From IMG/VR virus record IMGVR_UViG_2799112330_000002, positions 346,107 to 410,106 of that record: a stretch of 64,000 bases of DNA. The stretch is one strand, 5' to 3'. This document shows, one piece after another, positions 5,509 through 64,000 of the stretch. This DNA is from a virus (lineage: Duplodnaviria; Heunggongvirae; Uroviricota; Caudoviricetes). The notes beneath the pieces are model-generated. The model did not search any database, was not told the DNA's origin, and worked only from the letters and a program-made list of their open reading frames with translations. The position numbers were made by a program, and so were the translations under genes. Position 1 is the first letter of the stretch. Every line of letters begins with the position of its first letter.

Positions 5509-5889
5509 ATGATACAAGAAGAAAAACAATTACTGTTGAAGGACCTTAGTGCAAGGTTGATGTATGGAATAATCTGTAAATGCTTACATAGTAATAATGT
5601 TAAAGCAACAGCAATTGATACAGAAGATTCATCAGTATATTATTTTGATTGTGATGAATGGGAATCTATTGAATATTGCAAGCCATATCTCCGTCCAATG
5701 TCTTCAATGACTGATGAAGAGAAAAAAGAATTATTTGAGATTGGTTGTGAAGGAAATATTGAATATCCTTATGGTATGTACTTTAGATGTCAAGACTGGC
5801 TTAATGCTCATCATTTTGATTATCGTGGACTTATTGAAAAGGGTCTTGCTATTGCTGTTACTGAAGAAAATAATCCTTATAAAAAATAA
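5509..5889 (+). CDS. tandem paralog family A member
   Basis: ATG at 5509 gives MIQEEKQLLLKDLSARL...; the C-terminal 30 aa are almost identical to the previous gene. The track ORF extends upstream into the previous gene in a different frame. Confidence 0.5.
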   Translation: MIQEEKQLLLKDLSARLMYGIICKCLHSNNVKATAIDTEDSSVYYFDCDEWESIEYCKPYLRPMSSMTDEEKKELFEIGCEGNIEYPYGMYFRCQDWLNAHHFDYRGLIEKGLAIAVTEENNPYKK

Positions 5890-5893
5890 AGTT

Positions 5894-6304
5894 ATGACAC
5901 AAGAAGAAAAACAACTATTGATCCAAGACCTTTCAACAAGGTTGCCATACAAAACGTATGTTAAAACAACAAAAGGCATTGGCTATGTCTATGCTATAAA
6001 TACCTCTCAATTAGTTGAATTAAGCGTTGCTAATGATTCTGAATATTGGTCAGAAGTATTTAATATTGAGAAAATAAAACCATATCTCCGCTCAATGTCA
6101 AGTATGACTGAGGAAGAGACTATTGAATTTATAAATCTTACAGATAGTATTATAAAATTTGTAAATAAGCATTATGCGGTATTAAGTCTTCAACAAATTG
6201 ACTGGCTCAATGTACATCACTTTGACTATCAGGAATTAATTCCAAAAGGTCTTGCCATTGAGGTAACAAAAGATAATAATCCTTATGAAAAACAATACAG
6301 TTAA
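5894..6304 (+). CDS. tandem paralog family A member
   Basis: ATG at 5894 gives MTQEEKQLLIQDLSTRL...DWLNVHHFDYQELIPKGLAIEVTKDNNPYEK. Confidence 0.5.
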   Translation: MTQEEKQLLIQDLSTRLPYKTYVKTTKGIGYVYAINTSQLVELSVANDSEYWSEVFNIEKIKPYLRSMSSMTEEETIEFINLTDSIIKFVNKHYAVLSLQQIDWLNVHHFDYQELIPKGLAIEVTKDNNPYEKQYS

Positions 6305-6602
6305 GCAAATACGAGTATGTCTTGAAGAAGTTGCATCTTCAATTAATGAGTTTATTGACGAAATAATTGAAGATTTTAAATTAAAAGAAGCATATAAGAA
6401 TGGTGAAGAAGTAGAGATACAATATAGAGGAATTGGGCTTAACGGGGATTTTCATGAAGACATTCATCGTTCTGATGACGAGATAATCTATATACTTCAT
6501 AATGACAAAACTGTTGGAATAATAATTGAAAGACGTACATCTTTCAATAATGCTGAACTTACATTCATAAAAACATCAAAAAGAAAATTTAGAAAACTAT
6601 GA
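6285..6602 (+). CDS. hypothetical protein
   Basis: ORF of 105 aa. Confidence 0.4.
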   Translation: MKNNTVKQIRVCLEEVASSINEFIDEIIEDFKLKEAYKNGEEVEIQYRGIGLNGDFHEDIHRSDDEIIYILHNDKTVGIIIERRTSFNNAELTFIKTSKRKFRKL

Positions 6603-6994
6603 AAATTAATGAAAACATTAAGACTGAATTACCTTGTCCTCCTGATATGGATAAGCAATGTATAGAATTATATTATCTTTTGAATAGTCTGCCTGACACA
6701 CATACATTTGAATCTTGTTGTGGGCATGAAAGAGAAGTATATATGATGTTCTTCAGATGCTTTAATATTGGTGTATTATCAAGATTAGGAAGGGCTGTTT
6801 CAAGAAACTATTCTGACGGCAATTGGGAGATTGTCATTGATATAACAGACACAATGCCTTATGGGTGCTTCTGGCTTAGGACAACAAGTGTCCTTAAAAA
6901 GGATGAACTTGATGAAAGTCTTAAGGGGCTTATTGATAACATCCAATATTGGTTCAATGATGAGTTTGACAATTATTTCAGTATAGACAAATAA
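6599..6994 (+). CDS. hypothetical Cys/His-containing protein
   Basis: ORF of 131 aa; 4-nt overlap with the upstream gene. Confidence 0.45.
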   Translation: MKINENIKTELPCPPDMDKQCIELYYLLNSLPDTHTFESCCGHEREVYMMFFRCFNIGVLSRLGRAVSRNYSDGNWEIVIDITDTMPYGCFWLRTTSVLKKDELDESLKGLIDNIQYWFNDEFDNYFSIDK

Positions 6995-62354: not shown

Positions 62355-62519
62355 CTTATTAAACTTTTTCTATATATATTATATAATTAAAAATAATTTT
62401 TCAAATTCACTATCAAAAGAAAATTTACTATTAATGTGAAAAAATATGAAAGAATTGTGAATTTTTAATAGCCAAATTACTAATTTATAATTATTATTAA
62501 TCAAATATAAAACAAATAT

Positions 62520-62603
62520 CGCGGTCTAGTCTAATGGTAAGATGCAAGGCTCATAACCTTGAGACAGAAAATGCAAGTCCTGGTTCGATTCCAGGGGCCG
62601 CAA
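62520..62603 (+). tRNA. tRNA-like gene, anticodon CAT (Met/fMet or Ile2), atypical: C1.A72 mismatch and a 17-nt unpaired extra region
   Basis: Hand-folded. Acceptor cgcggtc/ggccgca, U8, D-arm with GG, anticodon arm caagg-ctCATaa-ccttg, T-arm cctgg-ttcgatt-ccagg. An extra agacagaaaatgcaagt lies between the anticodon and T arms with no stem. No CCA encoded. Confidence 0.45.
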
Positions 62604-62916
62604 CTAAAAAATTAAGTAGTCATAATAAGAGTTACATCGTAAATAACAATTGTATAGTATTAATAGATCCAGTATTTTTGTCTCTTATTAGTAATTCTCT
62701 TAATTAAAAATATTTATTATTATATAGAAAAAGAAAACATAAAAATCAAAAGAATATGAAGAATCTATTTTCACATAACAGCCAAATTAGTTTTTCAGAA
62801 CGACCAAGTTTTGAAGGATGCGGCATGTGGTCTATTAGATGCTTGAATATATATTCTGGAGATATGGAAGTATAAGTTATATATAATAATACAAAAACTA
62901 AACTATATATAGAATG

Positions 62917-62956
62917 AATCTCCAGAGCTTAATAAAAAGTTTTGGAGATTTTTTTA
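62917..62956 (+). terminator. weak terminator (aatctcca...tggagatt plus T6) after a 39-aa ORF
   Basis: 8-bp stem with a long loop. Confidence 0.35.
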
Positions 62957-62965
62957 TATAAAAGA

Positions 62966-63002
62966 TTGAATTTTTCTAAAATGAAACTATATTAATAATA
63001 CA
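62966..63002 (+). promoter_or_regulatory. conserved promoter motif upstream of tRNA
   Basis: TTGAAT-N16-ACTATATTAATAATACAT. Confidence 0.45.
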
Positions 63003-63034
63003 TAAAACAATAAATAATAGTTCTTTGAAATAAT

Positions 63035-63124
63035 GCTGCGTTCGACTAGTGGCTTAGGTCACCACACTTTCAATGTGGTAGCTGGTGTGAAGCCGGCACA
63101 GGGGTTCGAATCCCCTACGCAGTA
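63035..63124 (+). tRNA. type-II-architecture tRNA (long variable arm) with anticodon TTC as folded; isotype uncertain
   Basis: Acceptor gctgcgt/acgcagt (G1.U72), D-arm gact-agtggctta-ggtc, anticodon arm ccaca-ctTTCaa-tgtgg, 21-nt variable arm with a 5-bp stem, T-arm agggg-ttcgaat-cccct. Confidence 0.55.
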
Positions 63125-63223
63125 CTTTACAAGATTGAGAATCAAGTATTCAGAAATGAATCAAAACATTGATCTTTGACATATTCAATTCAAAAGAATT
63201 GAGGTTATCAAAGAATTGATCTT

Positions 63224-63252
63224 TGACATATTGGTACAACAAAAAATATATA
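63224..63252 (+). promoter_or_regulatory. consensus-like sigma70 promoter TTGACA-N17-TATATA (second copy of an 18-nt direct repeat)
   Basis: attgatctttgacatatt occurs at 63168 and 63215; the second copy has a TATATAAAT -10 element at the correct spacing. Confidence 0.45.
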
Positions 63253-63257
63253 AATTA

Positions 63258-63905
63258 CCTGTACTGGTCAACGATTCTAAGGTACAGAGGGGTACAGGTT
63301 GTAAGTCATAAACTCTCAGAACGCTGTTGAAACATAACAGATGCGTCAAGTGCCAGCTACTGAGCAGTCGTAACGGGTTTATGAGATTTATTTTCAAATA
63401 TAACTTCCGAGGGCGAAGATTAATTCTTCAATGGGCATACTGAATTGACAGTTGGAAGACCTTGTAGTGGCAAACACGTGATTGAGGTCAGCGCGATTGG
63501 TAAAGCAACCAAATGGAGACTGTGAAAGGGAAAAGCAGTGAGAATCTGCACCGTATTTTTGAATTTAATGTTCAAGGAGTTTGGTTAATTGCTCTATGAC
63601 AGATGTAGGAAGTTATTTTAATAAAATGATATGTCGAATCAAGTTTAAGAAAAAATTTCGTAAGACTAAGGTTCGGGATGTATAGAAAGGCATAGTAAAA
63701 GCATCATGGGTATTGACATCCTATGCGAGAAATGAGTCGGGAAATCCGAATGATACTCAGAAAGTCCTATAAGCATATGATATTCTAATAAATGATTATA
63801 TGTTGTTAACAGGTTTGAAGGGACCCCAAGGTGAAGGTAACGACTTCAGGACGCTTCAGTAATCGACTGTGAAACTCAGTTAAGCTTTTGCATATCATTT
63901 TAATT
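63258..63905 (+). ncRNA. candidate large structured non-coding RNA (about 650 nt, GC-elevated, ORF-free) between two tRNAs
   Basis: GC about 40-45% against about 27% for the window. No ORF on the + strand. Multiple local helices visible (acctgtac/gtacaggt, gaagaTTAAttcttc, gcagTGAGAATctgc). Lies downstream of a strong promoter and directly upstream of tRNA-Ser. Confidence 0.4.
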
Positions 63906-63907
63906 TT

Positions 63908-63994
63908 GGAGGTATGTGATAATTGGTAGTCGGGCGGTCTTGAAAATCGTTGGTCGTGATGAGCGGCTTGGGGGTTCGAGTCCCTCTGCCTCCG
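63908..63994 (+). tRNA. tRNA-Ser (anticodon TGA), type II
   Basis: Acceptor ggaggta/tgcctcc, U8, anticodon arm gcggt-ctTGAaa-atcgt, variable arm with a 5-bp stem, T-arm ggggg-ttcgagt-ccctc, discriminator G. Confidence 0.65.
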
Positions 63995-64000
63995 CAAAAA

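What the first reader, a model, noticed from the sequence alone, without database searches (positions are those of the whole stretch)
63258..63905. ORF-free, GC-elevated ~650-nt segment between two tRNAs: candidate large structured ncRNA (GOLLD/ROOL-like?)
In a genome that is otherwise about 27% GC and almost gap-free in coding, this stretch has no credible ORF, has markedly higher GC and shows many short inverted repeats. It sits directly after a TTGACA-N17-TATATA promoter and directly before tRNA-Ser. Large ornate ncRNAs such as GOLLD and ROOL are known to occur in phage genomes next to tRNA clusters. This could be one of them or a new class. No family can be assigned by eye.
Basis: partly seen in the sequence, partly recalled or inferred. 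Interest (0 to 1): 0.8.

Follow-up and report, generated by a model that had tools for sequence, protein, structure and literature searches.

The report
Three structured RNAs in phage tRNA operon
The 650-base gene-free stretch is three separate, conserved, folded non-coding RNAs packed between tRNA genes of an uncultivated large phage: two belong to no catalogued RNA family and the third is a divergent, full-length relative of the obscure RAGATH-33 motif, and the function of all three is unknown.

Summary
Window 63257-63900 has no credible ORF and 38.6% GC, against 29% for the window. It lies between a tRNA(UUC) and tRNA-Ser(UGA), behind a conserved TTGACA-N18-TATATA promoter.

It is not GOLLD, ROOL, HEARO, RNase P, tmRNA or a group I intron. 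It is three independently closed modules joined by A/U-rich linkers.
- A0 (63257-63391) is found in five other contigs, once alone. Its structure has only weak support.
- A (63401-63615) is a roughly 210-nt RNA with nine helices. It occurs in about 20 contigs of 20-435 kb. 17 of 43 pairs show compensatory changes, and no Rfam family matches.
- B (63624-63900) is a divergent member of a roughly 250-nt family. Rfam's 113-nt RAGATH-33 model covers only its 5' part. 28 of 35 pairs show compensatory changes.

The modules occur apart, in either order, and as alternative inserts at one locus. They are always on the same strand as neighbouring tRNAs. B is often only 3-10 nt from the tRNAs on both sides. 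The same islands carry ROOL and tmRNA.

I infer that tRNA-processing enzymes release the modules as stable trans-acting RNAs. Their function is unknown.

The parts
63221..63252 (+). Dedicated sigma-70-like promoter: -35 TTGACA at 63223-63228, an 18-nt spacer, and -10 TATATA at 63247-63252. The predicted start is around 63257-63260.
   Evidence: Sequence. The 19-mer at 63221-63239 is conserved upstream of A0 or A in L015, L016, L024, L027, L028/L031 and L032 and occurs once in the window. Promoter activity is inferred, not shown.
63168..63185 (+). Upstream copy of the 18-nt -35 region ATTGATCTTTGACATATT (second copy at 63215-63232). It has no obvious -10 element.
   Evidence: Read directly from the sequence. 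Its function is unknown.
63257..63391 (+). Module A0: a hairpin at 63257-63299 with a 27-nt invariant loop, plus a multibranch domain at 63301-63391 closed by UCAUAAACUC/GGGUUUAUGA.
   Evidence: Found by nhmmer in L015, L027 and L028/L031 directly 5' of A, and alone in L109. RNAalifold on four sequences gives 44 pairs, 4 with compensatory changes. Structural support is weak.
63392..63400 (+). A/U-rich linker between A0 and A.
   Evidence: GC is 0.125 for 63395-63402. The stretch lies outside both closing helices.
63401..63615 (+). Module A: a roughly 210-nt RNA with nine helices, from a family not present in Rfam 15. It is closed by P1 (63401-63408 with 63608-63615). The core is 85-90% identical across phages whose neighbouring protein is only 38% identical.
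   Evidence: Alignment A2 of 18 sequences. RNAalifold gives 43 pairs, 17 with compensatory changes. 99.6% of cells are paired, against 35-43% when the partner is slid, and 0 of 500 shuffles reach the observed values. CM R1 scores 228.7 bits here. No Rfam family other than tRNA was found in any locus carrying A.
63624..63900 (+). Module B: a divergent full-length relative of the RAGATH-33 RNA. It is closed by a 10-bp P1 (63624-63633 with 63891-63900).
   Evidence: Sub-threshold Rfam RF03102 match at 63654-63757: 39.3 bits against a gathering score of 120.4, E = 4.4e-6. An HMM built only from classical full-length members finds 63724-63882 at E = 8.4e-17. CM R2 scores 183 bits. Alignment A4 of 25 sequences gives 35 pairs, 28 with compensatory changes, and 97.5% of cells paired against 27-48% when slid.
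63729..63756 (+). Invariant core of B, GAAAUGAGUCGGGAAAUCCGAAUGAUAC: a hairpin UCGG-GAAAU-CCGA flanked by a conserved asymmetric internal loop with UGA on both strands.
   Evidence: Exact 28-nt match in eight IMG/VR contigs. These columns are invariant in A4. Reading the loop as a tandem-G.A or k-turn-like motif is my inference from the sequence.
63035..63125 (+). Upstream tRNA with anticodon UUC and a long variable arm (91 nt).
   Evidence: ARAGORN and Rfam. The same unusual tRNA lies just upstream of A0, A or B in L016, L035, L091 and L015.
63908..63995 (+). Downstream tRNA-Ser(UGA), starting 8 nt after B. In the 80%-identical relative L015 it is the first tRNA of an array.
62916..62951 (+). 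Terminator-like hairpin followed by a T-run, ending the preceding transcription unit.
   Evidence: No terminator-like site lies on the + strand within 63257-63905.

Best explanation
The segment is the promoter-proximal part of a phage tRNA operon. It encodes three independently folding, conserved, structured non-coding RNA modules in tandem: A0 (about 135 nt), A (about 215 nt) and B (about 277 nt). A0 and A belong to families not catalogued in Rfam. B is a divergent member of a roughly 250-nt RNA family of which Rfam's RAGATH-33 model captures only the 5' 113 nt.

The modules are transcribed from a dedicated, conserved sigma-70-like promoter together with the downstream tRNAs. I infer that they are released by 'tRNA punctuation': RNase P cuts at the 5' end of the next tRNA, 3'-end processing of the preceding tRNA defines the other end, and endonucleases cut the A/U-rich linkers.

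They then act in trans as stable RNAs during infection. They form part of an 'RNA island' that in related phages also holds tRNAs, tmRNA and ROOL. Given that company, and the near-invariant loops of A and B, the most likely target is a conserved host component of translation or tRNA metabolism.

Shown: homology, covarying structure, modularity, and strand and spacing relative to tRNAs. Inferred: promoter use, processing, trans action and target.
For: - Modularity. Each module has its own closing helix.
  - A occurs without B in about 15 contigs, and B without A in about 45.
  - The order is A then B in the window, L015 and L065, and B then A in L091. They are 3.4 kb apart in L035.
  - A0 occurs alone in L109.
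  - L033 and L109 share both flanks but carry A and A0 respectively.
- Structure. A has 17 of 43 pairs and B has 28 of 35 pairs with compensatory changes. Both far exceed the shuffled and slid controls.
- Strand. Many G.U pairs would be A.C mismatches on the other strand. Every neighbouring tRNA in every locus is on the same strand as A or B.
- Processing. B sits 3-6 nt after tRNA-Leu and 7-10 nt before tRNA-Thr in more than 12 contigs, and 8 nt before tRNA-Ser here.
- Own promoter. The conserved 19-mer lies upstream of A0 or A in seven contigs. In L024 and L032 it abuts A directly.
- Island context. ROOL is present in L004, L061 and L093, and tmRNA in L035 and L061.
- Selection. The core of A is 80-90% identical in L016, where the adjacent 1512-aa protein is only 38% identical.
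Against: - No expression data exist. Transcript ends, stability and separation of the modules are all inferred.
- There is no tRNA, terminator or second promoter between A0, A and B, so a single roughly 640-nt RNA is not excluded in this lineage.
- A0 rests on five sequences.
- Covariation counts come from related sequences, on structures predicted from the same alignments. The shuffle control is therefore not a probability.
- Nothing in the data identifies a target, partner or activity. The translation link is guilt by association.
Confidence: 0.6

Rival explanations
1. A0, A and B together form one roughly 640-nt ornate RNA in this phage lineage. It would work as a unit, like GOLLD, which has a variable 5' region and a conserved 3' region, and might assemble into an RNA-only complex.
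For: One promoter, and no terminator or tRNA between the modules. A0 is directly followed by A in five contigs. A then B then tRNA-Ser is conserved in the window, L015 and L065. The window-type subfamily of B co-occurs with A in 5 of 6 loci. GOLLD is described as modular and tRNA-linked (PMC12286853).
Against: Each module is closed by its own covarying helix, and the linkers are A/U-rich and unconserved. The order is reversed in L091, and the modules are 3.4 kb apart in L035. A, B and A0 each occur alone. No covarying pairs between modules were predicted, but I did not search for them systematically.
Confidence: 0.17
2. The segment is a cis-acting leader of the tRNA operon. It would be a structured spacer controlling transcription, folding or ordered RNase P/RNase Z processing of the downstream tRNAs, with no trans function.
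For: It lies between the promoter and the first tRNA of an array. All copies are co-oriented with tRNAs and tightly spaced from them.
Against: A, B and A0 also occur in the middle of arrays, after arrays, next to ROOL, or upstream of protein genes (L018-L022, L033, L093, L109). The neighbouring tRNA identities differ (Leu/Thr, Glu/Ser, Arg, Gly). Near-invariant long loops over 200-280 nt are more than a spacer would need. No terminator or antiterminator alternative was found.
Confidence: 0.1
3. One module is a highly diverged or reduced version of a housekeeping or catalytic RNA, such as RNase P RNA, tmRNA, a group I intron, SRP RNA or 6S RNA.
For: The setting (tRNAs, tmRNA) would suit a phage RNase P RNA. 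By eye, A has GUGAAAGGG followed by a hairpin with a purine-rich loop, and B has a GGUAACGAC hairpin. Both are reminiscent of bacterial RNase P.
Against: No Rfam match to any such family at E <= 10 in 1.5 kb. ARAGORN finds no tmRNA. Local alignment of A, B and A0 to E. coli rnpB scores no better than shuffled sequences: 17-18 against a shuffled mean of about 17, with more than 100 of 300 shuffles as good. No P4-type pseudoknot or tRNA-like domain is evident.
Confidence: 0.04
4. The GC shift reflects a decayed protein-coding gene or a remnant of a mobile element, not a functional RNA.
For: Short ORFs of up to 70 aa exist on both strands. Homing-endonuclease (HNH) ORFs lie near B in L004, L006 and L009.
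Against: Substitutions are compensatory in helices and are not codon-periodic. The ORFs are not conserved: there are stops in L018 and frame-shifting variable hairpins. The sequence is 80-90% conserved where flanking proteins are 38% identical.
Confidence: 0.02

Closest known systems
RAGATH-33 RNA (Rfam RF03102; from the Weinberg et al. 2017 candidate set, PMC5737381)
   Same: Module B shares the invariant 28-nt core, the hairpin with an AUAGAAAGG loop, and the location in phage tRNA arrays. Bona fide RF03102 members (138-140 bits) in L001-L006 align with B along their full length.
   Different: The window copy scores 39 bits against a gathering score of 120, so it lies outside the curated family. 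Its subfamily (window, L015, L035, L065, L091, L096) is 39-49% identical to the classical and intermediate members of A4. The Rfam model covers only 113 nt. The real RNA is about 250-285 nt, with two long-range helices joining the modelled 5' part to a conserved 3' half. No function is known, and I found no paper that discusses RAGATH-33.
ROOL RNA (RF03087)
   Same: A structured RNA of unknown function encoded in phages and prophages near tRNA islands, first found in rumen data (PMC5737381, PMC12286853). It occurs in the same RNA islands as B (L004, L061, L093).
   Different: There is no sequence or structure match. ROOL is a single roughly 580-nt fold with few invariant nucleotides. Here there are three smaller modules, and A is very strongly conserved in sequence.
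GOLLD RNA (RF01998)
   Same: Associated with phages and tRNA arrays, with a modular build (variable 5' region, conserved 3' region) and sometimes with embedded tRNAs (PMC12286853).
   Different: No Rfam match. The modules here occur separately and in either order.
Phage T4 stable RNAs 'species 1 and 2' (rnaC/rnaD) in the T4 tRNA cluster (from my own knowledge)
   Same: Small stable RNAs of unknown function, encoded among phage tRNA genes and matured from the same precursor transcripts. This is the closest analogue for the proposed biogenesis.
   Different: There is no detectable sequence similarity to any GenBank phage in the collection searched. A and B are larger and more elaborately folded.
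Phage-encoded tmRNA
   Same: A large structured RNA carried in the same islands (L035, L061), flanked by tRNAs and linked to translation.
   Different: No tRNA-like domain, tag ORF or model match is present in the window segment.

Membership tests
RAGATH-33 (RF03102) | Score at or above Rfam's gathering threshold (120.4 bits) | tested here: not met
   39.3 bits, E = 4.4e-6, at 63654-63757. The window-type relatives L015, L035, L065, L091 and L096 also fail the threshold.
RAGATH-33 (RF03102) | Conserved core GAAAUGAGUCGGGAAAnCCGAAUGAUAC and hairpin with AUAGAAAGG loop | tested here: met
   28 of 28 identical at 63729-63756. The AUAGAAAGG loop columns are invariant or nearly so in A4.
RAGATH-33 (RF03102) | Homology detectable with a profile built without the window or its close relatives | tested here: met
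   An HMM of classical full-length members only gives E = 8.4e-17 over 63724-63882. With intermediate members added it gives E = 2.1e-27 over 63671-63894.
RAGATH-33 (RF03102) | Shared secondary structure kept through compensatory changes | tested here: met
   The 7 helices and 35 pairs are 97.5% paired across 25 sequences that include the window. 28 pairs have changes on both sides.
ROOL (RF03087) | Match to the ROOL covariance model (a roughly 580-nt fold with multistem junctions and pseudoknots) | tested here: not met
   No match at E <= 10. Positive controls score 308-320 bits in L004, L061 and L093.
ROOL / GOLLD (as a kind) | Phage-borne, next to tRNA islands, no associated protein gene | tested here: met
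ROOL / GOLLD (as a kind) | Homo-oligomeric RNA-only assembly | not testable with these tools
   This needs SEC-MALS, native gels or cryo-EM.
GOLLD (RF01998) | Match to the GOLLD covariance model (conserved 3' domain) | tested here: not met
   No match at E <= 10 in 62500-64000, and none at the gathering threshold in the window.
tmRNA | tRNA-like domain plus tag reading frame | tested here: not met
   ARAGORN finds none and there is no RF00023 match. tmRNA is detected in L035 and L061 by the same scan.
Bacterial RNase P RNA | Model match, or conserved CR-I to CR-V regions with the P4 core | tested here: not met
   No Rfam match. Local alignment to E. coli rnpB is no better than shuffled sequences.
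Group I intron / HEARO | Model match, with an interrupted host gene or an associated nuclease ORF | tested here: not met
   No Rfam match. The flanking tRNAs are intact and there is no ORF.

The most novel reading that the evidence does not exclude
Modules A and A0 found new classes of phage structured RNA. Together with the full-length RAGATH-33-type RNA, ROOL and tmRNA, they would form an exchangeable 'RNA toolkit' carried in the tRNA islands of huge gut and rumen phages. Module A has nine helices and near-invariant loops conserved far beyond the surrounding proteins. That points to a sophisticated trans activity on a conserved host target such as the ribosome, tRNAs or tRNA-processing and tRNA-targeting enzymes, or to an RNA-only assembly. 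It does not look like a passive spacer.
Probability: 0.3. Interest if true: 0.85.

Novelty: new variant of a known kind. Interest (0 to 1): 0.6.

Why it matters
- Large, elaborately folded bacterial and phage RNAs with strong sequence conservation are rare. Historically they have turned out to be ribozymes, ribonucleoprotein cores or, recently, RNA-only nanocages (ROOL, GOLLD).
- This locus adds a roughly 210-nt, nine-helix RNA (A) with no catalogued relative.
- It shows that the RAGATH-33 motif is a fragment of a roughly 250-nt RNA embedded like a bead between tRNAs.
- It shows that such RNAs behave as swappable cassettes in the tRNA, tmRNA and ROOL islands of uncultivated large phages from gut and rumen.
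- This gives defined boundaries, alignments and covariance models for experiments on what phage 'RNA islands' do beyond supplying tRNAs.
- The value is limited by the absence of any functional or expression evidence, and by the fact that many orphan RNA motifs of this kind already exist.

Tried and rejected
- Rfam at the gathering threshold on the whole window found only three tRNAs.
- blastn against GenBank phages found nothing, whether with the segment, with two classical B sequences, or by tblastn with the neighbouring 1490-aa protein. There is no cultured or deposited relative.
- The search for related loci with the 1490-aa protein in IMG/VR confirmed no relative. Relatives came instead from the protein database and contig look-ups.
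- The genome-contig scan with the module A pattern gave six hits, all chance. None matches the A profile or CM.
- L010, L012-L014, L034, L044, L055, L078 and L084 are chance or coding matches to the B core pattern.
- The RNase P idea arose from a by-eye resemblance of A and B to rnpB. It was rejected because the alignment score equals that of shuffled sequences.
- Single-sequence folding energy is uninformative on both strands (z of -0.9 and -1.45).
- Literature: no paper mentions RAGATH-33. The supplements of the discovery paper are not held. I found no paper on A-like RNAs. Module A could be among the 8,495 unnamed IMG/VR candidates of PMC10690425, which I could not check.
- I considered and left untested a k-turn reading of the B core, T-loop readings of the 7-nt loops UGAGAAU (A) and UGAAACU (B), and an L3/J9-7 pseudoknot in A (AAUUGA with UUAAUU).

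Full report
**1. Observation**

Window 63258-63905 lies between a tRNA with anticodon UUC (63035-63125) and tRNA-Ser(UGA) (63908-63995). No ORF exceeds 38 aa on the + strand or 70 aa on the - strand.

GC is 0.386 for 63257-63898, against 0.29 for the window (z of about 2.9). Some coding stretches reach similar values. Every other ORF-free gap of 300 nt or more has GC of 0.24-0.29.

TTGACA (63223-63228) and TATATA (63247-63252) are separated by 18 nt.

**2. Known families**

At the gathering threshold, Rfam finds only the three tRNAs. At E <= 10 over 62500-64000 there is no match to ROOL, GOLLD, HEARO, group I intron, RNase P or tmRNA.

There is one suggestive sub-threshold match to RAGATH-33 (RF03102) at 63654-63757. 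It scores 39.3 bits against a gathering score of 120.4, with E = 4.4e-6, and is strongest over GAAAUGAGUCGGGAAAUCCGAAUGAUAC. The segment has no blastn match in 50,697 GenBank phage records.

**3. Module B (63624-63900)**

- *First relatives.* The 28-nt core occurs in eight IMG/VR contigs of 67-201 kb, inside tRNA arrays. Five of the eight carry bona fide RAGATH-33 at 138-140 bits, and one also carries ROOL.
- *The RNA is longer than the Rfam model.* Aligning the surroundings shows that conservation continues about 140 nt beyond the 3' end of the Rfam model. The 5' and 3' ends pair.
- *More members.* A degenerate core pattern recovered 68 metagenome loci, from human gut and other samples. About 58 are full length by nhmmer.
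- *Structure.* On 25 representatives (A4), RNAalifold predicts 35 pairs, 28 with compensatory changes. These include a 10-bp closing helix and a second long-range helix, both joining the Rfam-modelled part to the 3' extension.
  - 97.5% of cells are paired, against 27-48% when the partner is slid.
  - The covariation score is 0.717, against 0.243 when shuffled.
- *Placement of the window copy.* It belongs to a divergent subfamily with L015, L035, L065, L091 and L096. No member of this subfamily reaches Rfam's threshold.
  - A profile built only from classical members still finds it at E = 8.4e-17, across positions beyond the Rfam model.
  - CM R2 scores it at 183 bits and unites 43 members, including more distant ones.

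**4. Module A (63401-63615)**

- *First relatives.* The neighbouring 1490-aa protein has many homologues in contigs of up to 474 kb.
  - The 80%-identical relative L015 is collinear across the whole tRNA and RNA region.
  - In L016 the protein is only 38% identical, yet 63424-63622 is 80% identical over 199 nt. There it is followed directly by tRNA-Asp, with no module B.
- *More members.* Pattern scans added 16 IMG/VR contigs of 22-435 kb.
- *Structure.* The 18-sequence alignment A2 gives nine helices and 43 pairs, 17 with compensatory changes. Seven of these are in the 8-bp closing helix. Variable hairpins sit at two positions.
  - 99.6% of cells are paired, against 35-43% when slid.
  - 0 of 500 shuffles reach any of the five measures.
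- *Not catalogued.* No locus carrying A has any Rfam match other than tRNA. CM R1 finds no more distant relatives, and none in the six genome contigs pattern hits.
- *Not coding.* The 28-aa ORF in A is not conserved.

**5. Module A0 (63257-63391)**

A0 is nearly invariant in L015 and L027. In L028/L031 it is diverged, with compensatory changes in two hairpins. In each of these loci it lies directly 5' of A.

In L109, A0 occurs without A. L109 and L033 share both flanks but carry A0 and A respectively, which is a cassette swap. Structural support for A0 is weak, resting on four sequences.

**6. Arrangement**

- The order is A then B in the window, L015 and L065, and B then A in L091. The two are 3.4 kb apart in L035. 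A or B occurs alone elsewhere.
- Every tRNA next to A or B is on the same strand as the module.
- B is typically 3-6 nt after tRNA-Leu and 7-10 nt before tRNA-Thr. Here it is 8 nt before tRNA-Ser.
- The 19-mer CTTTGACATRTTGRTACAA precedes A0 or A in seven contigs. In L024 and L032 it abuts A.
- A terminator-like hairpin lies upstream at 62916-62951. There is none inside the segment.
- The same islands contain ROOL and tmRNA.
- Many G.U pairs fix the + strand as the RNA strand.

**7. Interpretation**

The data show three independently folding, selectively maintained RNA genes that travel as cassettes in phage RNA islands.

I infer co-transcription with the tRNAs and release by the tRNA-processing machinery. 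This is tRNA punctuation, as for the stable RNAs of the T4 tRNA cluster (my own knowledge). I also infer a trans function.

The partner is unknown. Company with tRNAs and tmRNA, together with long invariant loops, points to translation or tRNA metabolism. RNA-only assembly, as reported for ROOL and GOLLD (PMC12286853), is an alternative.

The rivals are a single 640-nt RNA, a cis-acting leader, a diverged housekeeping RNA and a decayed gene. They are weighed in their own sections. The RNase P lead was tested and rejected.

**8. Novelty and limits**

B is a new, sub-threshold variant of a known but uncharacterised Rfam motif, and it redefines that motif's extent. A and A0 are unreported as far as Rfam 15 and the searchable literature show. 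They could, however, be among unnamed bulk predictions (PMC10690425).

No expression, processing or functional evidence is available. The lineage has no cultured representative.

Noticed in passing
window 63035-63125 and 62520-62604; also L016:2167-2255, L035:5481-5572, L091:968-1056, L015:869-953: The tRNA with anticodon UUC (Glu) carries a long, class-II-like variable arm (85-92 nt in total). This is unusual, because bacterial class II tRNAs are Leu, Ser and Tyr. It is conserved in several related contigs, usually just upstream of A0, A or B. The tRNA-Met(CAU) at 62520-62604 also has a 14-nt variable-region insertion. Which synthetase charges them is unknown.
   Followed up: partly
L033:8320-8720 and L109:120-480: Two related IMG/VR contigs from one sample share both flanks but carry module A in one and module A0 in the other. 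The RNAs therefore behave as exchangeable cassettes at a fixed site upstream of a protein gene.
   Followed up: yes
L093:5666-6496; L004:6109-8844; L061:5867-8527; L035:4849-5337: The related RNA islands also hold ROOL (308-320 bits) and tmRNA. In L093 a B-like RNA (5666-5925) abuts ROOL (5920-6496) with no spacer.
   Followed up: partly
L004 around 6360-6900, L006, and L009:1390-2212: An HNH-type endonuclease ORF is followed by a conserved sequence (CCAGACTACAAC...GAGTAGTAAGAAAATCC). In L004 and L006 that sequence runs into what looks like the 3' half of a tRNA. This may be an intron-interrupted tRNA gene next to B. Rfam reported no group I intron at the gathering threshold.
   Followed up: no
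L004, L069, L074 and L081 (upstream of B): ARAGORN calls 'tRNA-Pyl' (anticodon CUA) 465-930 nt upstream of B. This points to amber-suppressor tRNAs and possible stop-codon recoding in those phages.
   Followed up: no
L027:6120-6330, and the regions just 3' of A in L030 and L032: A further conserved stretch of about 100 nt (CAGTCACTGGTTGTCGAGAAGACAATTAGAATCAGATATCC...) follows module A in three contigs. It may be yet another RNA module.
   Followed up: no
window 63168-63185 and 63215-63232: An 18-nt direct repeat, ATTGATCTTTGACATATT, contains the -35 hexamer. Only the second copy has a plausible -10 element.
   Followed up: no
window 1-62354: The genome looks like a large uncultivated phage. 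It encodes an NAD-dependent ligase, SbcCD-like proteins, an exonuclease and a BspA-type LRR protein. Most large ORFs have no Pfam or PHROG match. Relatives of the 1490-aa protein sit on contigs of up to 474 kb, and none is in GenBank phages.
   Followed up: partly
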